A DNA stretch of 64,000 nucleotides from Thermoanaerobaculia bacterium (GCA_963816185.1 CAWFJJ010000001.1:161224-225223), one strand, 5' to 3'. Numbered from the stretch's first letter, positions 8,140 through 49,325 are shown. Numbers and translations: made by a program. The notes: generated from the sequence alone by a model not told the origin.

Positions 8140-8985
8140 TCAGGCTCCGGCCTTGAACGTGAACGCGAGCGGCTTGGACTCGGTCGCGCCGACCGTGACC
8201 TGTTGCGTCTGGGTGCCGAGCTTCTCGTGCCACGCCTCGATCGTGTACGTACCGGCCGGCAGGTTCTTGATCGCGTAGGTGCCATCCGCCGCCGTGACCG
8301 CGAAGAACGGGTGCGCGACGACGCCGCAATAGGCGGACATCCAGCCGTGCACGTCGCACTTGATGTGGATCATGACCTCGGGCTTGTCGAATTTCTTCGT
8401 GTACTTCATCCCCTTGACGGGCATCCCGAGGTTGAAGGACTCGTTCTTCTCCGGAAGGGAATGGATGTTGTGAAGCGTGTCGTCGCTGTTCAGGATGTCG
8501 AGGCTCTGGCCCGCGACCATGCCGAAAACGTGCGGATGGTACGTGCAGCCCCTCTGGTCGATGACGGCCGCGGCGGCGGGCGGAGGATACGTTCCGGAGA
8601 TGCCCGACTTCACGTACACGAATACATTCGCGAGACCCTTGTCGGGGCCGACGACGATCTCTTCCTTCGCCACTTCGCCCGGGTGCTGCTTCGCGCAGAA
8701 CGCGTCGGCAGACATCTTGAACTTCTCGGGCGGCGGCACCGCCCCTTCGAAGACGATCTTGCCGGTGATCGAGGCCGAGCCCGTGGCGCCGGCGGCGGGG
8801 CCGGCGGCGGATGAGGCCGGAGCCGCCGGAGCGGCGGCGCCCTCCGTCGCGGCGCCCTTGGCCCGCGCGGACTTGGGCTGGTCCTCGTCCTCGTCCTTGC
8901 CGCCGCACCCGGCGGCGAGAACGGCCGCGAGCGCGGTGACGGCGCAGACGGAGACGAAGCGGAAGCGGATTGCGGAACCGGACAT
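8140..8985 (-). CDS. Lipoprotein with a cupredoxin-like copper site motif and a C-terminal carboxypeptidase-regulatory-like beta-sandwich
   Basis: Start MSGSAIRFRFVSVCAVTALAAVLAAGC with lipobox LAAGC. GGAGG lies 6 nt upstream of the start. H186 ... C221-x2-H224-x2-M227 (HIKCDVHGWM) has amicyanin/pseudoazurin-like spacing. C-terminus GTYAIKNLPAGTYTIEAW. Confidence 0.55.
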   Translation of the reverse strand: MSGSAIRFRFVSVCAVTALAAVLAAGCGGKDEDEDQPKSARAKGAATEGAAAPAAPASSAAGPAAGATGSASITGKIVFEGAVPPPEKFKMSADAFCAKQHPGEVAKEEIVVGPDKGLANVFVYVKSGISGTYPPPAAAAVIDQRGCTYHPHVFGMVAGQSLDILNSDDTLHNIHSLPEKNESFNLGMPVKGMKYTKKFDKPEVMIHIKCDVHGWMSAYCGVVAHPFFAVTAADGTYAIKNLPAGTYTIEAWHEKLGTQTQQVTVGATESKPLAFTFKAGA

Positions 8986-9042
8986 GCGGACCTCCTCGAC
9001 GGTCGATTTCCTTATCATGTTCCCCCGGAACGAGGGAAATCG

Positions 9043-10167
9043 ATGATAGACAATCGTCCGATGCGCGTCGAATTCGCGGTACTCCGGCACGTCGAGATGC
9101 CCCTCAAGTTCCGTTTCCGCACGTCCTTCGGGGAGACGGGCGTGAAGAAGTTCCTCCTCCTCGAGGTCCGCGCCGACGGCCTTTCCGGATGGGGCGAGTG
9201 CGTCGCCGAGGAAGGGCCGTTCTATTCGCCCGAGACGATCTCCACGGCGTCCTCGATCCTCACGGCGTTCCTGCTGCCGCTCGTTCTCGGCAAGTCCGTC
9301 GCGTCTCCCGAGGAGTTCGAGCGTCTCTCCTCGCGCATCCGCGGGAACCGGATGGCGAAAGGCGCCGTCGAGTGCGCGCTCCGTGACCTGTTCGCGAAGG
9401 CGGCCGGCGTCCCCCTGGGGAAGTCGCTCGGGGGCTCGCGCGAGAAGATCGAGGTCGGTGTCTCGCTCGGCATCTCGCCGACGCCGGCGGAGACCGTCGA
9501 GAACGTGAGGAAGCACGTCGAGCAGGGCTATCGCCGCATCAAGCTGAAGATCGAGCCGGGCTCGGATCAGGACCGGCTCTCCGCCGTGCGCGCCGCGTTC
9601 CCGGACATCACGCTCACGGTCGACGCGAACGCCGCCTATACGCCCGCGCAGGCGGACATGCTGCGCGCCCTCGACGCGTTCCGGCTCGACTACATGGAGC
9701 AGCCTCTGCACCACGAGGACCTCGTCGCGCACGCCGAGCTCGCGAGAACGCTGAAGACGCCGATCTGCCTCGACGAGTCGATCCGCTCGGCCGCCGACGC
9801 GAGGGCCGCGATCCAGCTCGGCGCCTGTAAGGTCCTCAACGTCAAGATCGGCCGCGTCGGCGGGCACGGCGAAGCCGTGCGGATTCACGACGCCGCGCGA
9901 GCCGCAGGCGTGCCGGTGTGGTGCGGGGGCATGCTCGAGGCCGGAATCGGTCGCGCCCACAACGTCGCGATCGCGAGCCTGCCGGGCTTTTCGAAGCCGG
10001 GCGACACGTCATCCTCGTCCCGCTACTTCGAGGAGGACATCGTGGCACCCCCGCTCGAAGCCACGGACGGGCTCATGCCCGTGCCGAAGGGGCCGGGCAT
10101 CGGGGTCGCGATCCGGCCGGAGATCCTCTCCCGTGTCACGACGGGAATCCAGGAGCTTCGCGCGTGA
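9043..10167 (+). CDS. Enolase-superfamily N-succinylamino acid racemase / o-succinylbenzoate synthase family enzyme
   Basis: 374 aa. It carries MR/MLE/OSBS hallmark segments (KIEVGVSLG, RIKLKIEPG, TVDANAAY, DYMEQP, CLDES, KIGRVGG). Confidence 0.85.
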   Translation: MIDNRPMRVEFAVLRHVEMPLKFRFRTSFGETGVKKFLLLEVRADGLSGWGECVAEEGPFYSPETISTASSILTAFLLPLVLGKSVASPEEFERLSSRIRGNRMAKGAVECALRDLFAKAAGVPLGKSLGGSREKIEVGVSLGISPTPAETVENVRKHVEQGYRRIKLKIEPGSDQDRLSAVRAAFPDITLTVDANAAYTPAQADMLRALDAFRLDYMEQPLHHEDLVAHAELARTLKTPICLDESIRSAADARAAIQLGACKVLNVKIGRVGGHGEAVRIHDAARAAGVPVWCGGMLEAGIGRAHNVAIASLPGFSKPGDTSSSSRYFEEDIVAPPLEATDGLMPVPKGPGIGVAIRPEILSRVTTGIQELRA

Positions 10168-11306
10168 GCGCGCGCGTCCGCGACCTCGCCGCGCTGTTTG
10201 CCGCGCGTCAGAAGTCGATGCTGTCCGACCTCGAGGCCCTCGTCGTGCGGGAGAGCCCGTCCGGCGAGCCCGCCCTGGTCGGCACCCTCACGCGCTGGAT
10301 CGCGGCGCGCCTCGAAGAGGCTGGAATTCCGGCTTCGGGTGTTCCGTGCGCGGGTCGCGGCGACGCCCTGCTCGCGCGCGCCGGCCCCGAGCGCGGGGGC
10401 ACTCTTCTGCTCGGCCATCTCGACACGGTCTGGCCCGCCGGCACGCTGAAAGGGATTCCGTTTCGCGTCGAGGCCGGCGTCGCGCGGGGGCCGGGCGTCT
10501 TCGACATGAAGGGGGGCATCGCCGTCGCCCTCGCCGTCCTCGAGGCCGTCGCGCATGGAGATGTGACTCCTGCCGGGGGCTTCACGCTCCTCCTGACGCC
10601 GGACGAGGAGGTCGGGACACACGCTTCGCGCGACCTCCTCGTCGCCGAGGCCCTGAAGCGCGACCGGGTGTTCGTCCTCGAGCCGTCGGGCGAGGGCGGT
10701 GCCGCGAAGATCGCACGGAAGGGAGTCGGCCTCGTGGCGGTCCGCTTTTCCGGCGTGGCCGCGCACGCGGGGCTCGAGCCCGAGAAGGGGGCTTCGGCCC
10801 TCCTCGAGATGGCGCGGTTCGCGCTGTATGCCGACGCGCTCGCAGACCTTCCGTCGGGCACCTCGGTCGTGCCGACGGTCGCGGCGTCGGGCACGGTGAC
10901 GAACGTCGTGCCCGAGAGCGCCTCGCTCTCGGTGGATTTCCGGCTCTGGACCCAGGCCGAGGGAGAGCGCGTCCTCGCGGGACTTCGCGCGTACCGTCCG
11001 GGGGACTCGCGGGTAGAGGTCACACTCGACGGCGGCGTCAACCGTCCGCCCATGGAGGCGACCGAAGCGTCACTCGCGCTCCACAGGCGCGCCGCGGCGC
11101 TCGCGAAGACGCTCGGTTTCGACCTCGGGGCGGTGCGCGTCGGCGGAGGTTCCGACGGGAATCTCACGGCCTCCGCGGGCGTCCCGACGCTGGACGGCCT
11201 CGGGCCTTCGGGCGCCGGCGCGCACGCCCGCACGGAGCATCTCCTCGTGGAGGATCTTCCCCGGCGCGCGGCTCTCCTCGCGGGTCTCCTCGAGGATGCG
11301 GCGTGA
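10164..11306 (+). CDS. M20-family amidohydrolase (desuccinylase/deacetylase-like)
   Basis: The GTG start overlaps the preceding stop (GTGA). It has M20 motifs (LLGHLDTVWP, GVFDMKGG, DEEVG) and a C-terminal dimerisation region. Confidence 0.8.
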   Translation: MSARVRDLAALFAARQKSMLSDLEALVVRESPSGEPALVGTLTRWIAARLEEAGIPASGVPCAGRGDALLARAGPERGGTLLLGHLDTVWPAGTLKGIPFRVEAGVARGPGVFDMKGGIAVALAVLEAVAHGDVTPAGGFTLLLTPDEEVGTHASRDLLVAEALKRDRVFVLEPSGEGGAAKIARKGVGLVAVRFSGVAAHAGLEPEKGASALLEMARFALYADALADLPSGTSVVPTVAASGTVTNVVPESASLSVDFRLWTQAEGERVLAGLRAYRPGDSRVEVTLDGGVNRPPMEATEASLALHRRAAALAKTLGFDLGAVRVGGGSDGNLTASAGVPTLDGLGPSGAGAHARTEHLLVEDLPRRAALLAGLLEDAA

Positions 11307-12082
11307 GCGGACGCCTCGTGGTCCGGGAGCTCAGGACCCCGGAGGAATTCATCGAGACGGCGCACGTCTCGAAGGCCGCGTGGGGATTCGCCGAACGTTT
11401 CCTCTCGCCCGCGAGCGACCTCGTCGCGGCCACGCACGCAGGCGGTCTCACGGCCGCTGCGTTCGAGGGGAAGAAGATGCTCGGCTTCGTGCACGGCATC
11501 CCGCGCACGAACGTGGGCGAGCCGTGCCAGCATTCGCACCTCCTCGCCGTCCGGCCCGATGCGCAAGGGCGCGGGCTCGGCGCGACGCTCAAGCTCTTCC
11601 AGCGGGCGTGGTGCCTCGAGCGTGGGATCCGGCTCGTGACCTGGACCTACGACCCGTTCCTGCTGAAGAACGCGAAGCTGAACATCGCGCGGCTGCGCGC
11701 GACGGTGCGGACCCTCCTGCCGGATTTCTACGGCCACATGGGCGGCATCTACGCCGGCCTGCCGACGGACCGGTTCGAGGTGAACTGGCGCCTCGACGAT
11801 CCGCTCGTCGAGAGCGCGGCGCGGGGCGAGGAGCCGCCTCCGGACGGCACGGCCGGCGCGCCGGCGGTGACCCGGCCAGGGCAGATTCCCGAAGCAAGGC
11901 GGGTTCTCCTTCCGTTCCTCGCGGACGCGCCCCGCGTCTATCGCACCGATCCGAAGCGGAGCCTCGCCGCGCGCAGGAAGTTCCGGAGGCTGGCCCTGGC
12001 CCTGTTCGCGGCGGGCTACGAGGTCACGGACGTGACGGCCCGGGACGGCGAGCCCGCGTACGTCCTCGACCGGGCCGGGTGA
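11303..12082 (+). CDS. GNAT-family acyltransferase
   Basis: The GTG start overlaps the M20 stop (GTGA). It has a GNAT core (HSHLLAVRPDAQGRGLGATLKLFQRAW). It lies in the C-terminal part of ORF 10133..12082. Confidence 0.65.
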   Translation: MSGRLVVRELRTPEEFIETAHVSKAAWGFAERFLSPASDLVAATHAGGLTAAAFEGKKMLGFVHGIPRTNVGEPCQHSHLLAVRPDAQGRGLGATLKLFQRAWCLERGIRLVTWTYDPFLLKNAKLNIARLRATVRTLLPDFYGHMGGIYAGLPTDRFEVNWRLDDPLVESAARGEEPPPDGTAGAPAVTRPGQIPEARRVLLPFLADAPRVYRTDPKRSLAARRKFRRLALALFAAGYEVTDVTARDGEPAYVLDRAG

Positions 12083-12108
12083 TAGAGTTTTCGACCAGGA
12101 GGACGACG

Positions 12109-12396
12109 ATGAAGAAGATTCTTCGAGTGCTGGTTCCCGCTGCCTTTCTGCTGCTCGCTCCCGTCTTCGCGCAGGCGGCCGTCGACGACTTCCAGGTGAC
12201 CGGAAACGTCACGGAGAAGACCGCCGACTCGATCACGGTCATGAAGGGCAAGGAGCGCTTCCAGATCGCGATCGACAAGGACACGAAGATGACCGGCGAC
12301 GTGAAGGTCGGCGGCAAGGTCACGATCAAGTACAAGATGCACGCGAGCTCGATCGAGGCGAAGGAAGCGGCGGCGAAGCCTGCCAAGAAGAAATAA
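12109..12396 (+). CDS. Small secreted Lys-rich protein
   Basis: AGGAGG lies upstream of ATG 12109. Signal peptide MKKILRVLVPAAFLLLAPVFAQA. 95 aa. Confidence 0.5.
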   Translation: MKKILRVLVPAAFLLLAPVFAQAAVDDFQVTGNVTEKTADSITVMKGKERFQIAIDKDTKMTGDVKVGGKVTIKYKMHASSIEAKEAAAKPAKKK

Positions 12397-13967: not shown

Positions 13968-15630
13968 GTGCTCGTTCTCAACGTGCGCGTGCCCGGAGAG
14001 CCGGCGCGCCGCATCCGGCTCGACCGCCCGGTCCTGACGCTCGGCCGCTCCTCCACGAACGACGTCCCCCTCGGGGATCGGACGCTCTCGCGCGTGCACG
14101 CACGAATCGAGGGCGTCCTCGACGGCGGGCCGATCCGTCTCGTGGACCTCGGATCGCGGAACGGCACGTCCCTGAACGGCTCGCGCATCACGGAGCCGAC
14201 GCCGCTTTCGGCCGGGGACCGCATCCAGCTCGGCGAGACGCTCGTGGAGATCATCGAGGAATCCACGACCCGCGTCGTCATCGATCCCTTCGGGGAAGAG
14301 AGCTCCAAGAGAACGACGTTCCTGCAGTCCTCCAAGGATCTCCTGCGTCCGCACAAGCAGGAGCGGGACTCGAAGCTCGGGGCCGAGGAGCTCGCGCGCC
14401 TGAACGCGTCGCTCCGGATGCTCAACGAGATCTCCGTCGAGCTTCTCGGCGATATCCCGTTGAACCGCCTGCTCGAGCTGATCCTCGAAAAGACCTTCAC
14501 GTTCCTGCAGCCCGACCGCGGTCTCCTGATGCTCGCGGACGAGCACGGGGAGCTGAAACCGGAGAAGGTGAAGTATGCCCCGGGCGTCGACCCGTCCGAC
14601 ATCCGGCTCAGCAAGACGCTCATCCAGTCGGTGGTGGAAAAGAAGAACGGCGTCCTCCTGATCGACGCGGCGACGGACGCCGGTCTCGGCGCCGCCGAGT
14701 CGATCCGGATCCAGGGCATCACGTCCTGCATGGCGGCCCCTCTTTTCGTCGAGGACAGGGTCATCGGACTCATCTACCTCGAGGTGCGGCTCGGGCGGAA
14801 GAGCTTCAGCGAGGAGGACCTGCGCCTCCTGACCTCCCTCGCGAACACGTCCGCCATCAAGATCCAGAATCTGCGCCTGCAGGAAGGCGCCGCGGCCCGG
14901 AAGCGCATCGAGAGCCGAGATGGCTCTCGCGTGGGACATCCAGCGGCGCCTGCTGCCGGAAGCCGAGCCCATCCTGCCGCACACGGAGCTCCTCGGCCGG
15001 ACGGTTCCGGCGAGCACGGTCTCGGGGGACTATTACGACTTCTTCGAGCGGGGGGACAAGTCGCTCGACGTCGTCGTCGCGGACGTGAGCGGAAAAGGCA
15101 TGGGCGCCTCGATTCTCGCGGCCTCGGTGCAGGCCGCGTTCCAGGCGTGGGCCGGAGAGCACTTCCCGCCGGATCGGCTCTGCTCGCGGCTCAACGAGAT
15201 GGTCTTCCGGCGCACGAGCCCGGAGAAGTTCATCACGTTCTTCCTCGCGCTCTACGATCCCGAGTCGGGCTCCGTCGTGTTCACGAACGCGGGTCACAAC
15301 CCGGGCATTCTCGTGCGGGCCGGCGGCGCCACGGAGCTGCTCGGCGCCCACGGGCCTCCGCTCGGGCTCTTTCCGGGAAAGACCTACGGTTCGGGGACCT
15401 TCACGCTGGAGACGGGCGACGTCCTCGCCCTCTACACCGACGGCGTGACGGAGGCCGCGAATCCCGAGGACGAGGAATTCGGGACGCCGCGCCTCGTCGA
15501 GACGCTCGTGAGGGCGCGCCGGGGCTCAGTCGCGCAGATCGAAGCCGAGGTCGGCGCGGCTCTCACGGCGTTTACCGCCGGCACGCCTTTCGGCGATGAC
15601 CGGACGTTCGTCGTACTGAAGCGAACCTAG
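13968..15630 (+). CDS. FHA-GAF-PP2C (SpoIIE-type) serine/threonine phosphatase. It has an apparent +1 frameshift near 14900.
   Basis: ORF 13968..15599 carries an FHA domain ([13 protein letters not shown] ... SRVHARI ... [10 protein letters not shown]) and a GAF domain. ORF 14920..15630 in the +1 frame carries the PP2C domain ([14 protein letters not shown] ... GDYYDFF ... [13 protein letters not shown] ... [11 protein letters not shown]). The frame-0 continuation is low-complexity. Confidence 0.75.
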
Positions 15631-16626: not shown

Positions 16627-18033
16627 CTACGCGCGAGGCGGCGCGGCGGCCTCCGGCTCGACCGCGTCCCGGGCGTCTCGTGAAAGCATGCCGTGGCGCT
16701 TCAGCATCTCGTTCAGCGTCGTCGGCTTGAGGCCGAGGAGCTCGGCCGCGCGCTTCTGAACGCCCGACGCGCGCTGCAAGGCCGCCGAAAGCAGCGAGCG
16801 CTCGTAGGCGGCGACGGCATCCTTGAAGGAGAGCCCCTCGGCGGGCAGCGCCGCCGCGCGCGGCACGGAGCGCCGCACGGTGTCCGGAAGCTGGTCGAGG
16901 TCGATGACGCCGTGGCCGAGAACGAGGGCGCGCTCGAGGACGTTCTCGAGCTCGCGCACGTTGCCGGGCCAATCGTGGTCGAGGAGCGCCTTCATCGTCG
17001 CAGGCGTGACGGAGGGGACGGCCCTGCCGTTCTCCGCGGCGGCTCGCGCGAGGAGCGTCTCCACGAGAAGCGGCACGTCCTCGCGGCGCTCGCGCAGCGG
17101 AGGAAGCGGAATCGTGATGACGCAGAGGCGGTAGAAGAGGTCTTCGCGGAAGCGGCCCTCGGCCACGAGCCGCGCGAGATCGGCGTTCGTGGCCGCGATG
17201 ACGCGCACGTCGGCGTGCTGCGGCTCGACCGCGCCCACGGGCAGGAATTCGCGCTCCTGCAGGACGCGCAGGAGCTTCGCCTGCGTCTCGATCGGGACCG
17301 TGCCGATCTCGTCGAAGAAGATCGTGCCCTGGTCGGCCGCCTTGAACAGGCCCTTCTTGTCGGCGACCGCACCCGTGAACGAGCCCCGCACGTGTCCGAA
17401 GAGATTCGACTCGAGAAGGTCGGGCGGGAGAGCTCCGGAGTGTACGGTGACGAACGGGCCCGACGCCCGCGGAGACAGCCGGTGGAGCGCCTTGGCGACG
17501 AGCTCCTTGCCCGTTCCGCTCTCTCCGGTGATCAGGATTGTCGAGCGCGCGGCCGCCGCCTGGCGGATCGTCTCGAACACGCGCTCCATCGAGGCCGAGC
17601 GCCCGATGATCTCCTTGAGGCCGGGCGGAGTTTCGAGGCGCGCCTTGAGGGCTCGGTTCTCGGCCACGAGCCGGCGCTTCTCGAGCGCCTGCTTGACGAC
17701 GTGGACGACCTCCTCGTTCCGGAATGGCTTGGGGAGGTAGTGAAACGCGCCTTCGCGCATCGCGGCGATCGCGCTCTCGACGGATGAGTACGCGGTCACG
17801 ACGACGATCGGCACCTCGGGATGCCGCGCCTTGACCTCCGACAGGACTTCGAGGCCCGGGCGGTCGGGGAGCATGAGGTCGAGGAGCAGCAGGTCGATGG
17901 GCTCCTTGGCGAGGCGGTCGAGCCCCTCTGCCGCTGTTGCGGCTTCGCGCGTCACGAACCCGGCCTTCGCGAGCACGGACCCGAGAACGTCGCGGATGAC
18001 GGGCTCGTCGTCGAGAATGAGAACGGTGGACAT
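16627..18033 (-). CDS. Sigma54-dependent response regulator (NtrC family: REC + AAA+ + HTH)
   Basis: 468 aa. REC (ILILDDEPVIRDVL ... LLLLDLMLPD), AAA+ (GESGTGKE, GAFTGA-like, ESNLFGH) and C-terminal Fis-type HTH. Confidence 0.95.
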   Translation of the reverse strand: MSTVLILDDEPVIRDVLGSVLAKAGFVTREAATAAEGLDRLAKEPIDLLLLDLMLPDRPGLEVLSEVKARHPEVPIVVVTAYSSVESAIAAMREGAFHYLPKPFRNEEVVHVVKQALEKRRLVAENRALKARLETPPGLKEIIGRSASMERVFETIRQAAAARSTILITGESGTGKELVAKALHRLSPRASGPFVTVHSGALPPDLLESNLFGHVRGSFTGAVADKKGLFKAADQGTIFFDEIGTVPIETQAKLLRVLQEREFLPVGAVEPQHADVRVIAATNADLARLVAEGRFREDLFYRLCVITIPLPPLRERREDVPLLVETLLARAAAENGRAVPSVTPATMKALLDHDWPGNVRELENVLERALVLGHGVIDLDQLPDTVRRSVPRAAALPAEGLSFKDAVAAYERSLLSAALQRASGVQKRAAELLGLKPTTLNEMLKRHGMLSRDARDAVEPEAAAPPRA

Positions 18034-18036
18034 TTT

Positions 18037-20778
18037 TCAGGTCGCGGCGGGAAGGGATACGGTGAATCGGGCGCCACGCTTTCCCGCGGACGTCACCGTC
18101 AACGTCCCGCCATGCGCGTGGATGATATCCCTCGCGATGGCGAGCCCGAGTCCGGTCCCCCCCTTCGCGGTCTTCGTGGAATAGAACGGCTCGAACACGC
18201 GGGCCGCCTCGGCATCCGTCAGGCCGGGTCCGTTGTCCTCGACGGAGAAGATGACGTGGCCGTCGTCTGCGGCAACGCGCAGCGTGACGGCAGGCGGCGG
18301 ATCGCCGGCCGCGCGCGGCAAAGAAGGCGATGTCACCGCCTCGAGCCCGTTCTTGGCGAGATTCACGAGCACCTGGACGAGGGCGTCGCGATGGCCGGAG
18401 ACCGCCGGGAGGCCGGGCGCGGCCTCGACGTCGAGCGTTGCGCACCGCGCCGCGCTCTCGTCCGCGAGCGCCCATCCGGTCTCCTCGGCGAGGGCGGCAG
18501 GGTCGAGGCGCACGAACTCGCGCGGCTTCCCGCGCGCGAGGTCCAGAAGGCTGCCGACGAGGCGCGAGGCCCGGAAGGCCTGGCGTTCGATCTTCTCGAC
18601 GAGCGTCCGGCGGGGATCGTCGCTGGGCGTCTCGTCGAGAAGCAGGCGCGCGAACCCTGCAACGCCCGCGAGCGGCGTATTGACCTCGTGCGCGACGCCG
18701 GCCGAGAGGGTGCCGAGGGCCGCGAGGCGCTCGCGGTCGGCGAGCGCGCGTTCGAGGCGCGCGGTCTCGGTTGCGTCGTAGAGGACGAGTACGCGGGCGT
18801 GGGATCCCGGACCCGCGCCGGGAAATGGCGAGACGGCGACGTTGAGGACGCGCGGCCCCGAGCCGAGGTCCGCCTCGAGCCGCGCGGGCGGCATCTGGGA
18901 AACGAGCGCGGCAGGCAGCACATCCGCTGCCAGCGTGCCCACGAGGGACGTTGCGTCGCGCCCGAGGAGGGCTTCGAAGGCCGGGTTGACCGACGTGAAT
19001 CGGCCCAGATCATCGGTGGCTGCGATTGCCGCGGCCGAGCCCGCGACGACGTTCTCGTGAAAGCGCTGGAGCGTCCGGTAACGGTCGGCCTCGACGCGCA
19101 GCTCGTCGAACAAACGCGCGTGGTCGAGCGCGAGCGCCGCCGGCGCGAGAACGGTTTCGAGAAGCTCCGTGTCCTCGGCCGACAGGGGAACGCGCCCGGC
19201 GCGGTCGCCGACCGCGAAAAGGGCGAGGAGCCGCCCGGAAACGGTCAAGGGCGCGAGCGTGCGGAACCCTGCGTGCCTCAGGCGCGAGACGGCGGCGGTC
19301 GGACGCGCCGCAAAATCCTGCCGCGACAGGCGCGTCGTACGCGAGAGGGCCCTCGCGGGAAGCTCCGAGAGCGCGAGCGGCGGGCCTCCGTCGACGTCCA
19401 CGCCGAGGAGGACGTCCTCCTCGACGGGCAGGAGGGCCGCGCGCGAGACGCCGAGACCCCGCGAAACGCGGTCCGCAAGAATGTTCTGAAGGTCTTTGAA
19501 AGCCCGCGGCGTCGGCAGCTCTCGAACGAGCGCGAGCAGGCCTTCACGATCCCGCAGGGCTTCGCGATACTGAAGGCGCGTGAGCGCGGTCGAAAGGCCC
19601 CGACGCACGGGTCCGAAGCTGAGCGCCATGAGAAGTCCGGCGGACACCTGCAACGCCGCCCTCGCGTGGGGAATCCCCACGGCCACAGGCTGCGCGAGAA
19701 GAAGCTGGGCGAGCGTGAAGAAGCCGGCTCCTACGAGCAGGGCGCCGAGCACCGACGCCGTTTGGCGGCCGAGAACCTCGACGTCCCACAGGCGGTAACG
19801 CGTGAGCGACGCGAGGAAAGCCGCTGGAACGAGCGCGAGAGGAAGCACCGAAAGCGACGAGACGATCGGAATCGAGCCCCCGAGAAGCCGGGGCACGAGA
19901 TTCAGGAGAACGAGGGGAAGCATGCCCACGGCCGTGCCGAGCAGGAGGAAGCGGACCTGCTTCTCCGTCAGAAGGTCAGTCGGCCGCCGCGCGAGGACGA
20001 GGAGCCGTACGGCCGCAAGGGCGGCTCCCGACGCCATCCAGATGATCTGCGCGCGGTCGAGGGCGTTCACCGCTGCCGACGTGTCGCGTCCCGCCCTTCC
20101 GGAATACACGGCCGCAGTCGCGATGAGAAGCAGCGCAGCGGGCGCGAACGGGAGCCACGCGGGTGTGCGACGCATGCGCCTTGGGAACGTGAAGACGAGC
20201 GAGAGAAGGAGAGCGGGGAACAGCGCGCGCGCAACGTCCTCGATCAGAACCGCCGCGCGAAACAGCCCGTCGATCGGCGGCACCGGCGTCAGGGTGAGGA
20301 CGAGAGCCACCGAAAGGGCGAAGCCGGAGAAGACGAGCGATTCTCGCGACGGCGGGGAGGGGCGGGCCGCCGCCAAGCCCGCCGCCAGGAACGCGAGGCC
20401 CACGGCGAAGAGGAAGAGGTAGCGCCAGTCCCAGGACGACACCGGGACGTTCCGGAATGTCCGAAGCGCGTCGCCTCGGAGGACGGTCACCTCGGCGGAG
20501 CGCTCCGCGAGCCAGCGCGAAGGATCGCCCGCACGCCGCGCCTCGTCTCCGTCGACGAGCAGCAGCAAGTCACCGGGCTTCAGACCCGACGGGGCGGCGG
20601 ATTCGCCGACTCGGCGCACGCGGAGGCCCTCCGGCTCGGGCGAAACCAGGACGTCGGCCCGACCGAATGCCGAAACCTTACGCGCCAGGCAAAGCGCGGA
20701 CGGCACGAGCGCGAGCGCGAGAGAGCACAGCACGAACCATCGCGCTAGGGCGCGCACCCAGGGAGATCGAGCCTCCAT
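18037..20778 (-). CDS. Sensor histidine kinase with an N-terminal PDZ-like domain, a multi-TM domain, GAF/PAS, HisKA and HATPase
   Basis: 913 aa. H-box LSAGVAHEVNTPL. G-boxes DNGPGL and GGTGLGL. The N-terminal half is polytopic, with the motif RYRLWDVEV. Confidence 0.9.
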   Translation of the reverse strand: MEARSPWVRALARWFVLCSLALALVPSALCLARKVSAFGRADVLVSPEPEGLRVRRVGESAAPSGLKPGDLLLLVDGDEARRAGDPSRWLAERSAEVTVLRGDALRTFRNVPVSSWDWRYLFLFAVGLAFLAAGLAAARPSPPSRESLVFSGFALSVALVLTLTPVPPIDGLFRAAVLIEDVARALFPALLLSLVFTFPRRMRRTPAWLPFAPAALLLIATAAVYSGRAGRDTSAAVNALDRAQIIWMASGAALAAVRLLVLARRPTDLLTEKQVRFLLLGTAVGMLPLVLLNLVPRLLGGSIPIVSSLSVLPLALVPAAFLASLTRYRLWDVEVLGRQTASVLGALLVGAGFFTLAQLLLAQPVAVGIPHARAALQVSAGLLMALSFGPVRRGLSTALTRLQYREALRDREGLLALVRELPTPRAFKDLQNILADRVSRGLGVSRAALLPVEEDVLLGVDVDGGPPLALSELPARALSRTTRLSRQDFAARPTAAVSRLRHAGFRTLAPLTVSGRLLALFAVGDRAGRVPLSAEDTELLETVLAPAALALDHARLFDELRVEADRYRTLQRFHENVVAGSAAAIAATDDLGRFTSVNPAFEALLGRDATSLVGTLAADVLPAALVSQMPPARLEADLGSGPRVLNVAVSPFPGAGPGSHARVLVLYDATETARLERALADRERLAALGTLSAGVAHEVNTPLAGVAGFARLLLDETPSDDPRRTLVEKIERQAFRASRLVGSLLDLARGKPREFVRLDPAALAEETGWALADESAARCATLDVEAAPGLPAVSGHRDALVQVLVNLAKNGLEAVTSPSLPRAAGDPPPAVTLRVAADDGHVIFSVEDNGPGLTDAEAARVFEPFYSTKTAKGGTGLGLAIARDIIHAHGGTLTVTSAGKRGARFTVSLPAAT

Positions 20779-31893: not shown

Positions 31894-33600
31894 GTGAAAG
31901 TGTCCCTCTCCGCCCTCTTGGCGGCTGTACTGGCTGCGGCTATCGGCTGCTCGTCCTCTGGGCCTTCGGCTCCCGCCGCGAAAACCGCGGCCGAAGAGAA
32001 GGCCGCAGAGGACGCGAAGCGAAGTGAACGCGCGAAGGCGCTCCTCGGCCTGCAGCCTCCGGCGCCGGTTCCGGGAGAAGAGACCGGCGAAGTTCCAACG
32101 ACGACGGTCGTGGACCCTGACACCGGAAAGAAGCTCCTCAGGATCCCAAAGCAGATCCTCTATTACGAGAAAGGGGGACGCCTCTTCAACGCCGTCGTGG
32201 TCGGGCCGGGACTCCCGATCGTCCGCGAGGACGACAAGGCGTACTTCATCCTCGCGCCTCCGGAGCGGCCGAAGCCAGCTCCGGGGAAAGCCGGCGAGCC
32301 GGAACCCGAAGACCTCAAGCCGATCATCGAGCTCCCGGCGAGCGAAGCCGCCGTCGTGACGCCGAAGGTCTCGAAGGGCGCGTTTCGTTTCGAGGAGATC
32401 TCCGATGGTTTGCCGGTCGGGGGCATGTGGCGTGAGAACTTCGACGTGGGAGACGTCCTTGGGCAGGGCCGTCCCCAGATCGTCGTGCCGCCGGCCCGGC
32501 TCACGGGCAACTTCATTCGCGTGTACCGGCTCGACAAGGGCGAGGACGACAAGTGGCGCTGGCACCTGGCCAACGTCACGTTCGAAAACGCCGAGAATAT
32601 TCAAGCGGCTTACGGTGCCGCCACCCTCGCGGACATGGACGGCGACGGCAAGCTCGACATCGTCTTCGGAGGACACGGCTCTGGACCCGCGATCGCGTTC
32701 AACAAGGGTGGAGGCGCGTTCAAGGTCGAGACCCTGGGTCTGCCCCGGCAGATGTCGACGCGTGCGATCGCCGTCGGAGACCTCAACGGCGACGGCCGGC
32801 AGGACCTTCTCGCCATCTCCGACGATCCCGAGTGGCTGCTCGCCGCCGGCAAGCCGCACGCCGACAAGGGCAGCTCCTACGTGCGGGGGTACGACGTCCG
32901 GGCCTTCCTGAACGAAGGCACGCGTTTCCGCGAAATTCACAAGGGCCTCGAAGGAGCCTGTTTCGGGTACTCGATTGCGCTCGTCGTGCCGAAGGACGCG
33001 AAGGACGGGCTGCCGTTCTATTCGTCCGGCTGCCGGTACACCTCGAGCGCCACGCATCTCTTCGAGTTCGATCCCAAGCTTGAGGAATTCCGCTACGCGG
33101 GCGTCGGCGTGGTGGAGCTCTTCTCCCAGCACATGGGATCGGCCGCCGGCACGTACCACGGCCGGCCCGCGGCCTTCGCCTCCTGGTTCAAGCGTTCGCC
33201 GTTCGGCGCCACGCCCAAGATCGACGGGCAGGGGGTCACGGTCTATTACCGGGACGTGGACGGGAAGATGGCGAGCAAGCGCGTTGTGAAGACGCTCCAG
33301 CCCGAGGCCCCCGGGTCATCCGGCATCGCCGTCGGGGACCTGAACGGAGACGGCCTCGACGACGTCGTGTGGTGCGACGAAACGTCGCAGCGCATACGGG
33401 TCTTCTTCCAGACGTCCGAGGGCGAATTCGAAGAGCTGCCGACCGAACGGGAGCCGACCTTCATCAACCATCCGACCTCGCTCCGGATCGCGGACTTCGA
33501 CGGGGACGGGCACAAGGACGTCGCCCTCATGTACCAGTACCTCACAGGGGACGAAACCCGGGCGGGTGGATTACGCGTCTTTCGAGGCCTCCCGAAGTGA
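31894..33600 (+). CDS. FG-GAP/VCBS-repeat beta-propeller lipoprotein
   Basis: GTG start with an AGGAG RBS. Lipobox AAAIGC. Repeated DxDGDGxxD motifs (DMDGDGKLD, VGDLNGDGRQD, VGDLNGDGLDD, ADFDGDGHKD). Confidence 0.7.
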   Translation: MKVSLSALLAAVLAAAIGCSSSGPSAPAAKTAAEEKAAEDAKRSERAKALLGLQPPAPVPGEETGEVPTTTVVDPDTGKKLLRIPKQILYYEKGGRLFNAVVVGPGLPIVREDDKAYFILAPPERPKPAPGKAGEPEPEDLKPIIELPASEAAVVTPKVSKGAFRFEEISDGLPVGGMWRENFDVGDVLGQGRPQIVVPPARLTGNFIRVYRLDKGEDDKWRWHLANVTFENAENIQAAYGAATLADMDGDGKLDIVFGGHGSGPAIAFNKGGGAFKVETLGLPRQMSTRAIAVGDLNGDGRQDLLAISDDPEWLLAAGKPHADKGSSYVRGYDVRAFLNEGTRFREIHKGLEGACFGYSIALVVPKDAKDGLPFYSSGCRYTSSATHLFEFDPKLEEFRYAGVGVVELFSQHMGSAAGTYHGRPAAFASWFKRSPFGATPKIDGQGVTVYYRDVDGKMASKRVVKTLQPEAPGSSGIAVGDLNGDGLDDVVWCDETSQRIRVFFQTSEGEFEELPTEREPTFINHPTSLRIADFDGDGHKDVALMYQYLTGDETRAGGLRVFRGLPK

Positions 33601-35853: not shown

Positions 35854-38800
35854 ATGCCCCATGTGACCCGCACTCGTCGCCACGATCGTTCTCGCGCGTC
35901 CCTTTTCGTGGCAGGCCCCGCCGCCATGGGACTTCTCCTGGTTCTTGCAACGCTTCCTTCGCGCCTGGAGGGTCAGTGCACGCTGTCGGGCTCGCCGGCT
36001 GCGTTCGAACCGAATCCACCCGGCGTCACGCGGCCCGGAACCCTGAGTAGCGGATTCAACAACAGCCTCGTGCTCTATCAGCCGGCGGCAGCGGTCCGTA
36101 TCGGCTCCTCATGCAGGAGTCGTTCGGCTACTCGGTCCTCGATCTCACGACACCGACGAATCCGACCGCGCTCACGTACCACGACATCCGGTTTCCGTTA
36201 GGCGGCCCCAACAGCGTGCGCGCAAGCCGGCGACGGGCAGAATCTCGTTCAGACGATCGCCGTGTCTCCGGACGGGGTGCGCGGGGCCTTCTCGATGACG
36301 GGGCTGTCGGCGACGATCCAGACGGCCGTCGGAACTCCCAGCGGCGGAGGCGGCTTTACCCTCTGGGGGGATTTCTATCCCAAGCGTTCGAACAGCACGC
36401 TCGTCCAGCACATCGGCACACGTTACATCGCGTACGACATCCACCCGAACGTCGTGACGGCCTCGGACGTCAGCTCGTTACCGGGGGGCTCTCTCCAGCC
36501 CAACAACCTCTCGTACGAGATCACGACGTGGCCGGGCGGAGGCCGCGCGGTCCTGGCCGGGAACTACATTCTCTACCAGATCACCGGCGCCATCCGGGTC
36601 ATCGATGCGTCCCTTCCGGGACCCGTCGGAAACATCACGGCCTCTTACCCGCAGACGTCCATCACGAACGCCGATTTTCCCGGCGGCCGCACGATCGCGA
36701 ACTTCACGGCGGCCGTCGATCCGGCCGACGCGACGAAGCTCTGGGTCCTCGTGGAGCTGAGCGCGCTGGCCGGCGAGAACTCGCCCAGCTACGGGCTTCT
36801 CTCCGTCACGAAGAGCGGCCTCGGAAAGGTCTCGGCGGGCCCGACCTGGCGAGTCCCGTCGCAGACGGGCGACGTGTGGCTGCCCGTGGGGATGAGCTCG
36901 GCTCTCGTTGCGAACGGCACCGACCTGTTCGTCCTGATGTGGGCGGAGAGCCAGCTCCCGACGAACCAGTTCCTCCTCTATTCGACGACGGCGGGAGCAT
37001 GGGGGAGCGTGGCTCCGAGCTCATTTCCCGTGAGCGGCACGACGTTCGCGCTCCCGGGGAGGACGGCGGGCTTCGGGGTCGCGGGGACCAGCTCCGTCTA
37101 CTTGTACGTGCCCACGACGGTGTCCGCATACGTGATCCCGATGTCCTGCGTTTCCGTAAACGCGCCCGCGGTCGCATCGATGACCGTCGCCAACCAGGCG
37201 GGCGCAGCTCTCAACAACGGCGACACCGTGTTCCTGGGCGACCGGATCACGATCACTCCGTCGATCAACCCGCCGCCGTCGACCCAGCCCCTGACGGGAT
37301 TCGGCTGGAACTTCGACCTCGACTTTCACGCGGGCGCCGCGTCCGAAGACAACGGCGCCACCGCGTCGCCACGCCTCCATGCGCCGGACAACACCCTGGG
37401 GGTGTTCGGCGTCAGCCAGCAGGCTCCTCTCCCCGCGACCATCTTCGGCCCTTGTGATCCTCAGGTGGGCGGCGTGACCGTGAGTAGCGGCGCCGGCTGC
37501 TGGACCTCGGTCACGACGAACGGCGCGTTCGCCGGCGGCACGGCGGATTTCAACGCGCAAAGTCCGGTCGCGAAGGCCCTCACCTTCGCATTCGAGGCGA
37601 ACAACGTCCTCGGCAGTGCGGGCTCGAAGCTTTTCACGCTGAACTGGGCGATCCCTACGGCGAAGCTCCAGACGACGCAGGTCCTGTCCGGCAGTCCGCT
37701 CGTGAGCGCCTCCGACGGCCACCCGATGGCCACAGGCTTCAAGTGGTATTTCGGCGCGACTTCGGGGGCCCTGACGCAGGCGGCATGTGCCGGCCCGACG
37801 TGCGTGCCGACGTTCGACACGACGGGCACCTACAACTACTGGCTCACGGCGACGTACGCGAACGGGTACGTGACGCCGGACTGCCCGGGCGCTCCGAACT
37901 GCACGGCCGCGATGGGGACGTACACCATCACCGACTTCGCGCCGGCGTTCACCGTGAACGGCAGCACGAGCGGCCCGATCACGGGGGTCATCAACCAGAA
38001 CTTGAACGTGACGAACAGCTCGCAGCGCGGCCAGACCGTGACCGCCGCGGGAGGTTTCTATTACAGCCTCTGCAAGGTTCCCTGTACGGGCGGGGACCAA
38101 TACGTGCTCTGGGGCACGATGGGCGATGCCCCGCCGAGCGGCTCGCCTCCGTATGGTCCGGCGACGATTCCGATCCCGGCCGACGGCCGGGACCTACGCC
38201 CTCAAGATCAGGGTGAATTACACGAACCCGACCGGGACGGCGTTCTGGCCGGATCCGGCAGGCGTCTCCTACTTCACCGTGAACGTCGTGGACGTGACCC
38301 CGCTCGTCGTGACCGAGTCCGTGAACCCTGCGAGCGCGTCCGTCGGCCAGAACGTGACGTTCTCGTGCAACGCGAGCGGCGGCCTCACGCCCTATTCGTA
38401 CCAGTGGCGAAACCCGATCTCGTTCGTCATCCCTGGCGCAACGGGGCCGACGTACACGACCACGTCGACCGTCGCGGGGGGCGTCACGGCCTACTGCTTC
38501 GTCACGGACAGCCAGCAGCCGGTTCCCGCCTCGAGCAGCGCGAGCGCGACCGCGACGTTCACCGGAGGAGGAGGCGGAGGGGGAGGCGGCGGCGGCAATC
38601 TCTCCGTATACGTCTCGGCGAGTCCAAACCCCGGCGCGGTCGGCCAGCCGGTCACGTTCTCGTGCGGCGCCTCCGGCGGGACGGCTCCCTACTCGTACGT
38701 GTGGCGTTCGCCGGCCACGAGCGCGTTCCAGATCCCGGGAGCGACTTCGTCGAGCTACACGACGTCGTCGTCGGTCGTCGGGAGCCTCTCGGCGGGATGC

Positions 38801-40966: not shown

Positions 40967-40989
40967 CGATCGCCGAGACCACCGTTCCA

Positions 40990-41026
40990 GAATGCCCGGG
41001 CCCGAAGCCCGGGCATTCTTTCTTCC
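40990..41026 (+). terminator. Rho-independent terminator
   Basis: 12-bp stem gaatgcccgggc-ccgaa-gcccgggcattc followed by tttcttcc, directly after the giant gene stop. Confidence 0.6.
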
Positions 41027-41074
41027 AGGGAGCGCTTTCGTCCCGCGGAGGCTTCGGGCAACATCGAGACTCCG

Positions 41075-44222: not shown

Positions 44223-44239
44223 CGGCCCGAAAATACCTC

Positions 44240-45301: not shown

Positions 45302-45374
45302 TGCTCCGGCGCTTCTCGAGCGGTGAAGGGGGAAGGGGGAAACACGTCCGTGTTTCCCCCATCACTCACAGCTG

Positions 45375-48409: not shown

Positions 48410-48441
48410 TGAACTGATTGTAGGCGGTAAGCTTCCCCGAG

Positions 48442-49224: not shown

Positions 49225-49325
49225 TGGCGTCCGGGACAGGGGACATTCGGTCCGAACGCGGCGGGCAGGGCCTTTGCATTTCCGCCAAGGGGACGTGGAT
49301 TGAAACCTCGTCCGGGAGCCCCAAA

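What the first reader, a model, noticed from the sequence alone, without database searches (positions are those of the whole stretch)
9043..12082. Translationally coupled NSAR-M20-GNAT triad: a D- to L-amino-acid conversion or N-acyl-amino-acid salvage pathway
An enolase-superfamily NSAR/OSBS-type enzyme, an M20 amidohydrolase and a GNAT acyltransferase overlap pairwise by the 4 nt GTGA. The same three activities form the irreversible D-to-L amino acid conversion operon described in Geobacillus: N-succinyltransferase, N-succinylamino acid racemase and L-desuccinylase. No menaquinone genes (menB/D/E) are nearby, so an OSBS role in menaquinone synthesis is unlikely.
Basis: partly seen in the sequence, partly recalled or inferred. 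Interest (0 to 1): 0.55.

Follow-up and report, generated by a model that had tools for sequence, protein, structure and literature searches.

The report
D-to-L amino acid conversion operon
Three overlapping genes in an acidobacterial (Thermoanaerobaculia) genome most likely encode a known pathway that turns D-amino acids into usable L-amino acids; the case is ordinary, except that the final hydrolase belongs to a different M20 branch than in the Bacillus-type operons I could retrieve.

Summary
Three + strand genes lie at 9043-10167 (enolase-superfamily NSAR/OSBS, 374 aa), 10164-11306 (M20 hydrolase, 380 aa) and 11303-12082 (GNAT acyltransferase, 259 aa). Each pair overlaps by GTGA, and each gene has a Shine-Dalgarno-like motif.

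- **Racemase:** it is about 55% identical to the N-acylamino acid racemases of Thermus and Deinococcus. It keeps every catalytic residue and the specificity arginine (R266 in Amycolatopsis numbering).
- **GNAT:** it belongs to a distinct ~260-aa family. An NSAR gene lies within 8 kb of the GNAT in 67 of 80 genomes from six bacterial phyla plus one archaeal MAG, including the Lysinibacillus operon that the literature assigns to the Geobacillus pathway.
- **M20:** the partner is not conserved. Here it is carboxypeptidase-G2-like, as in Streptomyces, Dactylosporangium and a Chloroflexia MAG. Bacillaceae use an aminoacylase-type M20.
- **Menaquinone:** no men or mqn genes occur in the 64 kb. A second OSBS role cannot be excluded without the whole genome.

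Verdict: a new member of a known kind, in a new phylum. Interest is low to moderate.

The parts
8986..9042 (+). 57-bp divergent intergenic region ahead of the operon. It presumably holds the promoter and contains the ribosome-binding motif GAGGGA at 9032-9037.
   Evidence: Sequence read. The divergent lipoprotein gene starts at 8985 on the - strand. The consensus scan found no sigma-70-like + strand promoter, so the promoter is inferred, not shown.
9043..10167 (+). Enolase-superfamily enzyme of the NSAR/OSBS subfamily (374 aa), a predicted N-succinyl (N-acyl) amino acid racemase.
   Evidence: MR_MLE_N plus MR_MLE_C domains. TIGR01928 scores 338.5 bits against a cutoff of 200.65. The best solved structures are Thermus NAAAR 2zc8 (1.4e-125, 55.7% identity) and Deinococcus NAAAR 1r0m (4e-125, 54.6% identity). 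K167, K169, D194, E219, D244, K268 and R271 are all present. By a constant offset that I took from memory, these correspond to Amycolatopsis K161, K163, D189, E214, D239, K263 and R266. All seven are invariant in 78 aligned homologues.
10164..10167 (+). GTGA start/stop overlap between the racemase and the M20 gene, suggesting translational coupling. AGGAG lies at 10151-10155.
   Evidence: Read directly. The same junction is an in-frame 4-nt overlap in 11 of 13 related Acidobacteriota loci.
10164..11306 (+). M20 metallohydrolase of the carboxypeptidase-G2-like branch (380 aa), the predicted N-acyl-L-amino acid amidohydrolase ('L-desuccinylase').
   Evidence: Peptidase_M20 plus M20_dimer domains. 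The closest solved structure is carboxypeptidase G2, 1cg2 (2.1e-45). In that alignment H85, D114, E148, E149, E173 and H354 fall in the motifs HxD, D-K-G-G, D-E-E, E-P and G-x-H. I recall these as CPG2 H112, D141, E175, E176, E200 and H385. It scores below every NCBIfam cutoff. It is 44% identical (E 5e-72) to the Streptomyces rimosus M20 that overlaps GNAT-NSAR.
11303..11306 (+). GTGA start/stop overlap between the M20 and GNAT genes. GAGGA lies at 11292-11296.
   Evidence: Read directly. A 4-nt overlap into the GNAT gene is found in 54 of 62 related loci.
11303..12082 (+). GNAT-fold acyltransferase of a distinct ~260-aa family (259 aa), the predicted acyl-CoA (probably succinyl-CoA):D-amino acid N-acyltransferase.
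   Evidence: Acetyltransf_1 scores 29.1 bits over residues 37-114. There is no NCBIfam hit and no significant PDB sequence hit (one match at E 0.13). The AlphaFold2 model has pLDDT 79 and pTM 0.80. Foldseek finds a GNAT fold over about 170 residues; the best matches include YncA and phosphinothricin, ArsN and RimI acetyltransferases. The acyl-CoA motif Q88-x-x-G91-x-G93 is present. The protein is homologous over its full length to the NSAR-linked GNATs of Deinococcus (43%), Bacillus sp. F19 (29%) and Lysinibacillus (hhalign E 9e-34).
12109..12396 (+). Small secreted protein (95 aa, signal peptide) lying 26 nt after the GNAT stop, with AGGAGG at 12097-12102. It is probably co-transcribed. Whether it belongs to the pathway is unknown.
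   Evidence: The 26-nt gap leaves no room for a terminator. It is conserved at this position in L001, L002 and 12 Acidobacteriota loci. The only family hit is a non-significant DUF5666 match (E 0.021).

Best explanation
This is a chromosomal operon for the irreversible conversion of D-amino acids to L-amino acids through N-acyl intermediates.

Proposed steps:
1. The GNAT (11303-12082) acylates the alpha-amino group of a free D-amino acid, using an acyl-CoA that is most likely succinyl-CoA.
2. The enolase-superfamily racemase (9043-10167) interconverts the N-acyl-D and N-acyl-L forms. It uses a two-base mechanism (K169 and K268) on a Mg2+-stabilised enolate held by D194, E219 and D244.
3. The carboxypeptidase-G2-like di-zinc M20 hydrolase (10164-11306) removes the acyl group from the L form only. 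This releases the L-amino acid and pulls the equilibrium forward. The net cost is one thioester per molecule.

The three genes are translated as a unit through GTGA overlaps.

What is shown: the gene structure, the family memberships, conservation of the catalytic residues and conservation of the gene linkage. What is inferred by homology and context: the acyl donor, the D-specificity of the GNAT, the L-specificity of the M20 and the range of amino acids handled.
For: Published pathway: GNAT succinyltransferase plus NSAR/OSBS plus M20 L-desuccinylase, first found in Geobacillus kaustophilus, with operons also reported in Lysinibacillus and Roseiflexus.

Racemase:
- It passes the NSAR/OSBS-subfamily model.
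- It is about 55% identical to the solved N-acylamino acid racemases of Thermus and Deinococcus. The Deinococcus enzyme is used as an NSAR in biocatalysis (PMC7431475).
- All catalytic residues and the R266 equivalent are present.

GNAT:
- The fold is confirmed, and the nearest structures include GNATs named for amino-acid substrates.
- It is in the same family as the GNATs of the Bacillus sp. F19 and Lysinibacillus M20-GNAT-NSAR operons.
- Linkage to NSAR is seen in 67 of 80 genomes across Acidobacteriota, Deinococcota, Alphaproteobacteria, Chloroflexota, Bacillota and Actinomycetota. Start/stop overlaps are conserved.

M20:
- The catalytic motifs that align with those of CPG2 are intact. From my own knowledge, CPG2 itself cleaves an N-acyl-L-glutamate amide bond.
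- The same M20 branch sits beside GNAT-NSAR in Streptomyces rimosus (44% identity), Dactylosporangium, a Chloroflexia MAG and a Limnochordales MAG.

Context elsewhere points to D-amino acid and D-peptide use. Neighbours include peptide and amino acid ABC transporters, beta-lactamase-family serine hydrolases, a D-aminoacylase and a membrane dipeptidase.

No men or mqn genes occur in the 64 kb.
Against: - No activity was measured here.
- The sequences of the biochemically characterised Geobacillus kaustophilus GNAT and M20 could not be retrieved. The link to the characterised enzymes therefore runs through Lysinibacillus and Bacillus homologues and through literature statements (one search found no named Geobacillus entry in its top 120).
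- The M20 is not orthologous to the Bacillaceae operon hydrolase (20% identity, E 0.003; TIGR01891 against a CPG2-like profile), so its substrate is an extrapolation.
- Most Alphaproteobacteria loci have the NSAR-GNAT pair without any M20 nearby. The hydrolase step is therefore not always encoded with the pair.
- NSAR/OSBS enzymes are often promiscuous, so OSBS activity may also exist.
- The window has no transporter or regulator next to the operon that would point to a substrate.
Confidence: 0.75

Rival explanations
1. The enolase enzyme is bifunctional. It serves this pathway and is also the cell's o-succinylbenzoate synthase (MenC) for menaquinone synthesis, as the literature proposes for Roseiflexus and Lysinibacillus.
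For: It scores above the cutoff of the NCBIfam 'equivalog' model TIGR01928, o-succinylbenzoate synthase. Every homologue in annotated records is named menC. [quoted passage not shown]
Against: No men genes occur in 64 kb. The only UbiA gene is heme O synthase. The closest solved relatives are named N-acylamino acid racemases. Whether this organism uses the classical or the futalosine route could not be determined: the genome is not available and no paper was found.
Confidence: 0.15
2. The operon salvages exogenous N-acyl amino acids. The racemase and M20 together deacylate both enantiomers of N-acetyl or N-succinyl amino acids taken up from the environment, and the GNAT has an unrelated or detoxifying role.
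For: Racemase plus L-specific acylase is sufficient for complete use of racemic N-acyl amino acids. That is the industrial 'acylase process' run with the Deinococcus enzymes. A D-aminoacylase gene lies near the pair in Deinococcus sp. QL22.
Against: The most conserved linkage is racemase-GNAT, not racemase-hydrolase: 67 of 80 loci have the pair, while only about 16 have a window-type M20. The GNAT is translationally coupled in 54 of 62 loci. An acyltransferase is pointless in a pure deacylation route.
Confidence: 0.07
3. The three genes are functionally unrelated neighbours. The M20 is a dipeptidase or glutamate carboxypeptidase, and the GNAT acetylates some other amine.
For: The M20 falls below every curated family cutoff, and the GNAT has no curated family.
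Against: The order and the 4-nt overlaps are conserved from 58 to 93% GNAT identity within Acidobacteriota. The same three families recur in Streptomyces, Dactylosporangium, Chloroflexia and Limnochordales in different gene orders.
Confidence: 0.03

Closest known systems
[quoted passage not shown] Sakai et al. 2006, as cited.
   Same: It has the same three enzyme superfamilies in one operon. The racemase is in the same NSAR/OSBS subfamily. The GNAT is in the same family as the GNATs of the Bacillaceae operons.
   Different: It is in a different phylum (Acidobacteriota, class Thermoanaerobaculia). The gene order is NSAR-M20-GNAT. The M20 is carboxypeptidase-G2-like. The Geobacillus sequences themselves were not compared, because they could not be retrieved.
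Lysinibacillus and Bacillus sp. F19 operons: M20 aminoacylase-GNAT-NSAR (L090, L093) and NSAR-GNAT-M20 aminoacylase (L005).
   Same: The GNAT is homologous over its full length, including the C-terminal ~85-residue extension. The racemase is about 45% identical to the Bacillus sp. F19 NSAR and keeps the same catalytic residues.
   Different: Their M20 passes TIGR01891 ('amidohydrolases', 266-269 bits) and is only 20% identical to the window's M20. Those loci also carry peptide transporters (PTR2 or an ABC system), which the window lacks.
Streptomyces rimosus pSRIMHP (L007) and Dactylosporangium (L087) clusters, M20-GNAT-NSAR. As far as I could find, these are uncharacterised.
   Same: The M20 is of the same carboxypeptidase-G2-like branch (44% identity, E 5e-72). 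The GNAT family and NSAR subfamily are the same. The M20 and GNAT overlap by 4 nt.
   Different: The gene order differs. The Streptomyces locus adds a membrane dipeptidase and a serine hydrolase.
N-acylamino acid racemases of Deinococcus radiodurans (PDB 1r0m) and Thermus thermophilus (PDB 2zc8).
   Same: They are 54.6% and 55.7% identical over the full length, with identical catalytic motifs.
   Different: Their own gene neighbourhoods were not examined. The second Deinococcus copy, on megaplasmid MP1, sits in an NSAR-binding protein-GNAT cluster with no M20.
Carboxypeptidase G2 (PDB 1cg2).
   Same: It has the M20 catalytic domain plus the dimerisation domain, and the aligned catalytic motifs are conserved. 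From my own knowledge, its chemistry is hydrolysis of an N-acyl-L-amino acid amide.
   Different: The match is only 158.8 bits. The window protein falls below the glutamate carboxypeptidase family cutoff (213.6 against 349). The 380-aa product has no N-terminal extension and I saw no signal peptide in its translation, so it is probably cytoplasmic. That is my own reading, not a tool result.
DgcN-DgcA D-glutamate pathway: N-acetylation of D-Glu followed by N-acetyl-D-Glu racemase. This is recalled from my own knowledge; only the name of the NCBIfam model NF042940 was seen here.
   Same: The logic is the same: acylate the D-amino acid, then racemise the N-acyl form with an enolase-superfamily enzyme.
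   Different: The window racemase scores 119.7 bits against a cutoff of 400 for DgcA, so it is not a member. The acyltransferase here is a GNAT.

Membership tests
NSAR/OSBS subfamily, MLE subgroup, enolase superfamily | Enolase N-terminal capping domain plus C-terminal barrel domain | tested here: met
   PF02746 (53.7 bits) and PF13378 (184.5 bits), both above their cutoffs.
NSAR/OSBS subfamily, MLE subgroup, enolase superfamily | KxK motif and second catalytic Lys, plus the three acidic metal ligands (Amycolatopsis K161/K163, K263, D189, E214, D239) | tested here: met
   K167, K169, K268, D194, E219 and D244 are present and aligned with 1r0m and 2zc8. All are invariant in 78 homologues.
NSAR/OSBS subfamily, MLE subgroup, enolase superfamily | Second-shell arginine (Amycolatopsis R266), conserved in this subfamily and absent from other OSBS subfamilies | tested here: met
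   R271 lies in the motif NVKIGRVGG and is invariant in 78 homologues.
NSAR/OSBS subfamily, MLE subgroup, enolase superfamily | Score above the curated subfamily model | tested here: met
   TIGR01928 scores 338.5 bits against a cutoff of 200.65.
NSAR/OSBS subfamily, MLE subgroup, enolase superfamily | Measured racemisation of N-succinyl amino acids | not testable with these tools
   Needs an enzyme assay.
[quoted passage not shown] | GNAT, NSAR and M20 genes in one operon | tested here: met
   The genes are on the same strand with 4-nt overlaps and are conserved in relatives.
[quoted passage not shown] | GNAT homologous to the pathway's N-succinyltransferase | tested here: inconclusive
   It is homologous over its full length to the GNATs of the Lysinibacillus and Bacillus operons, which the literature assigns to this pathway. 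The characterised Geobacillus kaustophilus sequence itself was not retrieved.
[quoted passage not shown] | M20 orthologous to the hydrolase of the Bacillaceae operons (TIGR01891 aminoacylase type) | tested here: not met
   The window M20 scores 41.8 bits on TIGR01891 (cutoff 153.75). It is 20% identical to the Bacillus sp. F19 M20 (E 0.003). The Bacillaceae M20s score 266-269 bits on TIGR01891.
[quoted passage not shown] | Succinyl-CoA as donor, D-specific acylation, L-specific hydrolysis | not testable with these tools
   Needs biochemistry.
MenC (OSBS) of menaquinone biosynthesis | Encoded with other men genes | tested here: not met
   No MenB, MenD, MenE or MenF type domains, and no Mqn domains, are found in 64 kb. 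The UbiA gene is heme O synthase.
MenC (OSBS) of menaquinone biosynthesis | The organism uses the classical men pathway and has no other menC | not testable with these tools
Carboxypeptidase G2 / glutamate carboxypeptidase (M20A) | Di-zinc ligands and general-base Glu, plus the dimerisation domain | tested here: met
   H85, D114, E148, E149, E173 and H354 align with the corresponding CPG2 motifs. M20_dimer scores 53.8 bits.
Carboxypeptidase G2 / glutamate carboxypeptidase (M20A) | Score above the curated family cutoff | tested here: not met
   PRK06133 scores 213.6 bits against a cutoff of 349, and PRK07473 scores 216.4 against 386. The protein is a related but separate branch.
GNAT superfamily | GNAT fold with the acyl-CoA binding motif Q/R-x-x-G-x-G/A | tested here: met
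   The AlphaFold2 model has pTM 0.80. Foldseek gives probability 1.00 to many GNAT structures. The motif Q88-G-R-G91-L-G93 is present.
DgcA N-acetyl-D-Glu racemase | Score above the equivalog cutoff | tested here: not met
   NF042940 scores 119.7 bits against a cutoff of 400.

The most novel reading that the evidence does not exclude
The conserved unit is the racemase-GNAT pair, and the deacylase has been recruited independently at least three times: aminoacylase-type M20 in Bacillaceae, dipeptidase-like M20 in Deinococcus ficus, and carboxypeptidase-G2-like M20 here and in Actinomycetota and Chloroflexota. On this reading, the G2-like branch is an uncharacterised family of N-acyl-L-amino acid hydrolases. 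Its substrate range may differ from that of the Geobacillus enzyme. One possibility is acidic residues such as D-Glu released from peptidoglycan, given the glutamate specificity of CPG2. The conserved small secreted protein downstream might be a fourth, lineage-specific component.
Probability: 0.3. Interest if true: 0.4.

Novelty: new member of a known kind. Interest (0 to 1): 0.25.

Why it matters
It extends a biochemically defined D-amino acid salvage route to Acidobacteriota (Thermoanaerobaculia), a group known mostly from metagenomes. There it is a stable chromosomal operon set among housekeeping genes.

It also has practical value for annotation:
- The racemase is named 'menC, o-succinylbenzoate synthase' in every annotated record examined, including records from Alphaproteobacteria.
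- The partner GNAT family is unnamed, or is mislabelled 'chorismate synthase'.

The tight NSAR-GNAT linkage (67 of 80 genomes) gives a simple rule for separating racemase-type members from true MenC. The swapping of the M20 partner points to an untested family of L-specific deacylases that could be useful in amino acid biocatalysis.

Tried and rejected
- **Exact-sequence look-ups.** The racemase found nothing. The GNAT found only a 1-kb read assembly without DNA. The source genome is therefore not in the collection, and its men or mqn content cannot be read.
- **Key papers.** Sakai 2006, Odokonyero 2018 and Odokonyero 2014 are not held. Their content is cited only through later open papers.
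- **Geobacillus GNAT.** A profile search with the Bacillaceae GNATs, meant to pick up the Geobacillus kaustophilus enzyme by name, returned no named Geobacillus entry in its top 120.
- **Quinone pathway literature.** A search for the menaquinone route of Thermoanaerobaculia found nothing.
- **RNA elements.** An Rfam scan of the whole window found none.
- **Promoter and terminator scan.** It found no + strand promoter or terminator for the operon.
- **GNAT homologues without NSAR.** Loci L023, L039, L061, L062 and L065 were checked for an alternative conserved partner. Their neighbours are unrelated, so no second partner family emerged.
- **Small downstream ORF.** It gave no significant Pfam or PDB match.
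- **UbiA gene upstream as MenA.** Rejected: it is heme O synthase and lies next to ctaA.


Full report
**What is in the sequence**

The window has about 68-70% G+C. On the + strand there are three genes:
- 9043-10167 (ATG, 374 aa)
- 10164-11306 (GTG, 380 aa)
- 11303-12082 (GTG, 259 aa)

GTGA is read directly at 10164-10167 and at 11303-11306, so each start codon overlaps the preceding TGA. Each start has a purine-rich ribosome-binding motif 5-8 nt upstream: GAGGGA 9032-9037, AGGAG 10151-10155 and GAGGA 11292-11296.

Upstream, a lipoprotein gene runs divergently (8140-8985, - strand; CarboxypepD_reg domain). Beyond it lie ctaA and ctaB: COX15 plus heme O synthase, the latter scoring 264 bits on TIGR01473 against a cutoff of 210.3.

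Downstream, 26 nt after the GNAT stop, a fourth + strand ORF (12109-12396) encodes a 95-aa protein with a signal peptide, preceded by AGGAGG. The next genes, prfA and rpmE, are convergent. The unit is therefore a discrete operon of three genes, possibly four. It has no transporter or regulator of its own.

**Organism**

Homologues of the GNAT at 63-92% identity come almost only from metagenomes. Where they are named, the source is Thermoanaerobaculia or Acidobacteriota.

A close relative is contig_12409 of ERZ25039533 (3.88 Mb, locus L001). It has the same gene order from EPSP synthase to proline dehydrogenase. Its independently called genes for the triad are 374, 380 and 258 aa, with the same 4-nt overlaps, and a 96-aa gene follows.

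**The racemase**

Gene 1 has both enolase-superfamily domains. It scores 338.5 bits on TIGR01928, the model that covers the NSAR/OSBS subfamily (cutoff 200.65).

Its best matches among solved structures are:
- Thermus thermophilus N-acylamino acid racemase, 2zc8 (1.4e-125)
- Deinococcus radiodurans N-acylamino acid racemase, 1r0m (4e-125)
- Amycolatopsis NSAR/OSBS, 1sja (2.4e-101)

Identity is 55.7% to the Thermus enzyme and 54.6% to the Deinococcus enzyme.

The KxK motif (K167, K169), the metal ligands D194, E219 and D244, and the second catalytic lysine K268 are all present. So is R271, the equivalent of Amycolatopsis R266. The literature describes that arginine as conserved in this subfamily, absent from other OSBS subfamilies, and important for racemase activity. 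All seven residues are invariant in the 78 sequences I aligned.

**The hydrolase**

Gene 2 has the Peptidase_M20 and M20_dimer domains. Its closest solved relative is carboxypeptidase G2 (1cg2, 2.1e-45). H85, D114, E148, E149, E173 and H354 align with the motifs that I recall as the CPG2 zinc ligands and general base.

It falls below every NCBIfam cutoff. The best scores are on PRK07473, PRK06133 (glutamate carboxypeptidase) and PRK07338.

**The acyltransferase**

By sequence, gene 3 is only weakly recognisable as a GNAT: Acetyltransf_1 scores 29 bits, there is no NCBIfam model, and there is no significant PDB sequence hit.

An AlphaFold2 model built on 25 homologues has mean pLDDT 79 and pTM 0.80. 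It matches GNAT structures over about 170 residues. The best matches include enzymes named for amino-acid or N-terminal substrates: YncA and the phosphinothricin, ArsN and RimI acetyltransferases. The acyl-CoA motif Q88-x-x-G91-x-G93 is present.

An additional ~85 C-terminal residues are conserved throughout the family.

**Linkage across genomes**

A tblastn search of plasmid records returned the same taxa for the GNAT and the racemase queries, among them Deinococcus (19 records each), Streptomyces (13) and Sulfitobacter (4). Annotated loci show the arrangements below.

| Locus | Organism | Gene order |
|---|---|---|
| L003 | D. radiodurans MP1 | NSAR, binding protein, GNAT |
| L004 | D. ficus | NSAR, binding protein, GNAT, M20 |
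| L005 | Bacillus sp. F19 | peptide ABC transporter, NSAR, GNAT, M20, S9 peptidase, two beta-lactamase-family proteins |
| L006 | Sulfitobacter | amino acid ABC transporter, NSAR, GNAT |
| L007 | S. rimosus | membrane dipeptidase, M20, GNAT, NSAR, serine hydrolase |
| L008, L009 | two Deinococcus strains | NSAR, GNAT, peptide ABC transporter, serine hydrolases (and, in L008, a D-aminoacylase) |
| L090, L093 | Lysinibacillus | peptide transporter, M20, GNAT, NSAR |

I then scanned one genome per species with a GNAT alignment. At least 433 relatives were confirmed, and the best 80 loci were returned.

Local phmmer searches of all ORFs in those 80 loci gave these counts:
- 67 loci have an NSAR homologue of at least 200 bits within 8 kb.
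- 66 of these are on the same strand as the GNAT.
- In 61, the NSAR gene lies upstream of the GNAT.
- Of the 13 loci without NSAR, about six are cut by contig ends.

The loci span Acidobacteriota, Deinococcota, Alphaproteobacteria, Chloroflexota, Bacillota and Actinomycetota, plus one Nitrososphaerales MAG.

The gene before the GNAT overlaps its start by 4 nt in 54 of 62 loci. The NSAR-to-M20 junction does so in 11 of 13 Acidobacteriota loci. Translational coupling is therefore a conserved property, not an accident of this window.

**Relation to the published pathway**

[quoted passage not shown] It also states that the NSAR/OSBS genes of Lysinibacillus and Roseiflexus lie in operons with these genes.

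The window's GNAT is in the same family as the Lysinibacillus and Bacillus GNATs over its whole length:
- BLASTP: 29% identity, E 4e-38
- Profile-profile comparison: probability 99.9, E 9e-34, 256 aligned columns

I could not retrieve the Geobacillus proteins themselves.

**The M20 partner varies**

At least three M20 types sit beside the NSAR-GNAT pair:
- **Aminoacylase type.** The Bacillus and Lysinibacillus M20s pass TIGR01891 'amidohydrolases' at 266-269 bits. The Bacillus sp. F19 M20 is only 20% identical to the window's M20.
- **Dipeptidase-like type.** The D. ficus M20 is of this kind.
- **Carboxypeptidase-G2-like type.** The S. rimosus M20 has the same NCBIfam profile as the window's and is 44% identical to it (E 5e-72).

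M20s of the window's type also flank the pair in Dactylosporangium (L087), a Chloroflexia MAG (L058) and a Limnochordales MAG (L022), and in 14 of the 15 Acidobacteriota loci that carry both NSAR and GNAT.

Most alphaproteobacterial loci have no M20 within 8 kb. The conserved core is therefore NSAR plus GNAT, and the hydrolase is interchangeable.

**Menaquinone**

Pfam scans of the remaining window genes, together with synteny to L001, show no MenB, MenD, MenE or MenF type domains and no Mqn domains. The rest of the window holds regulators, a polysaccharide synthesis cluster and housekeeping genes.

I could not determine which quinone pathway the organism uses. A second, OSBS role for the enzyme therefore remains possible, as the literature proposes for Roseiflexus and Lysinibacillus.

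**Conclusion**

The proposed mechanism is:
1. N-acylation of D-amino acids by the GNAT, most likely with succinyl-CoA.
2. Racemisation of the N-acyl amino acid by the enolase-superfamily enzyme.
3. L-specific deacylation by the M20.

Only the family memberships, the residue conservation and the gene linkage are shown here. The acyl donor, the stereospecificities and the amino acid range are inferred.

This is a new member of a known pathway in a phylum where I found no report of it. It uses a carboxypeptidase-G2-like hydrolase that is shared with actinomycete and Chloroflexia clusters and appears to be biochemically untested.

Noticed in passing
window 12109-12396 (+): A small secreted protein (95 aa, signal peptide, AGGAGG ribosome-binding site) lies 26 nt after the GNAT stop. 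It is conserved at this position in L001, L002 and 12 Acidobacteriota loci, but not outside that lineage. The only family hit is a non-significant DUF5666 match (E 0.021).
   Followed up: partly
GNAT homologues P0001-P0120 and P0163: JGI names many members of this GNAT family 'chorismate synthase', and one UniRef entry (Lysinibacillus piscis) carries the same name. This looks like a propagated mis-annotation. NCBI calls them generic 'GNAT family N-acetyltransferase'.
   Followed up: no
L003-L009, L090, L092 (annotated plasmid records): Every NSAR homologue next to the GNAT is annotated 'menC, o-succinylbenzoate synthase'. RefSeq records add a menaquinone GO term, including the Sulfitobacter record. 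The linkage to the GNAT suggests these are racemases.
   Followed up: partly
L091 (CP031730.1, 'Stenotrophomonas rhizophila' plasmid) compared with L090 (Lysinibacillus fusiformis pMGMM7): The two loci have the same gene order and nearly the same gene coordinates over 10.8 kb. The Stenotrophomonas record is probably a mislabelled or contaminating Lysinibacillus replicon.
   Followed up: no
L003 6115-6992 (D. radiodurans R1 megaplasmid MP1): The substrate-binding protein gene between NSAR and GNAT is split into two overlapping CDS, which suggests a frameshift or pseudogene. This second Deinococcus NSAR copy has no M20 nearby.
   Followed up: no
L070 (Nitrososphaerales archaeon MAG contig, 8952 bases): A GNAT homologue (33% identity) has an NSAR homologue on the opposite strand about 0.9 kb upstream. 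This is either horizontal transfer into an archaeon or a binning error.
   Followed up: no
window 8140-8985 (-): A divergent lipoprotein (lipobox LAAGC) has a CarboxypepD_reg domain and Cys/His/Met motifs (HNIH, CDVHGWM) that resemble a copper site. It lies next to ctaA and ctaB and may relate to oxidase assembly. The copper-site reading is my own and was not tested.
   Followed up: no
window 38153-57850: A large surface-polysaccharide cluster: several GT2 and GT4 glycosyltransferases, a Wzt-type ABC ATPase, a PIG-L deacetylase, methyltransferases and a PMT_2 protein. It is preceded by a 937-aa PKD/Ig-repeat protein (38153-40966) and an FG-GAP protein (32110-33600).
   Followed up: no
window 13968-15599 (+) and 60723-63767 (+): Two GAF-domain signalling proteins. 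The second (1014 aa, with a PDZ domain) has a SpoIIE/PP2C phosphatase domain. The first (543 aa, with an FHA domain) matches the L001 orthologue that carries SpoIIE. A sigma-54 activator and a histidine kinase lie at 16627-20733.
   Followed up: no
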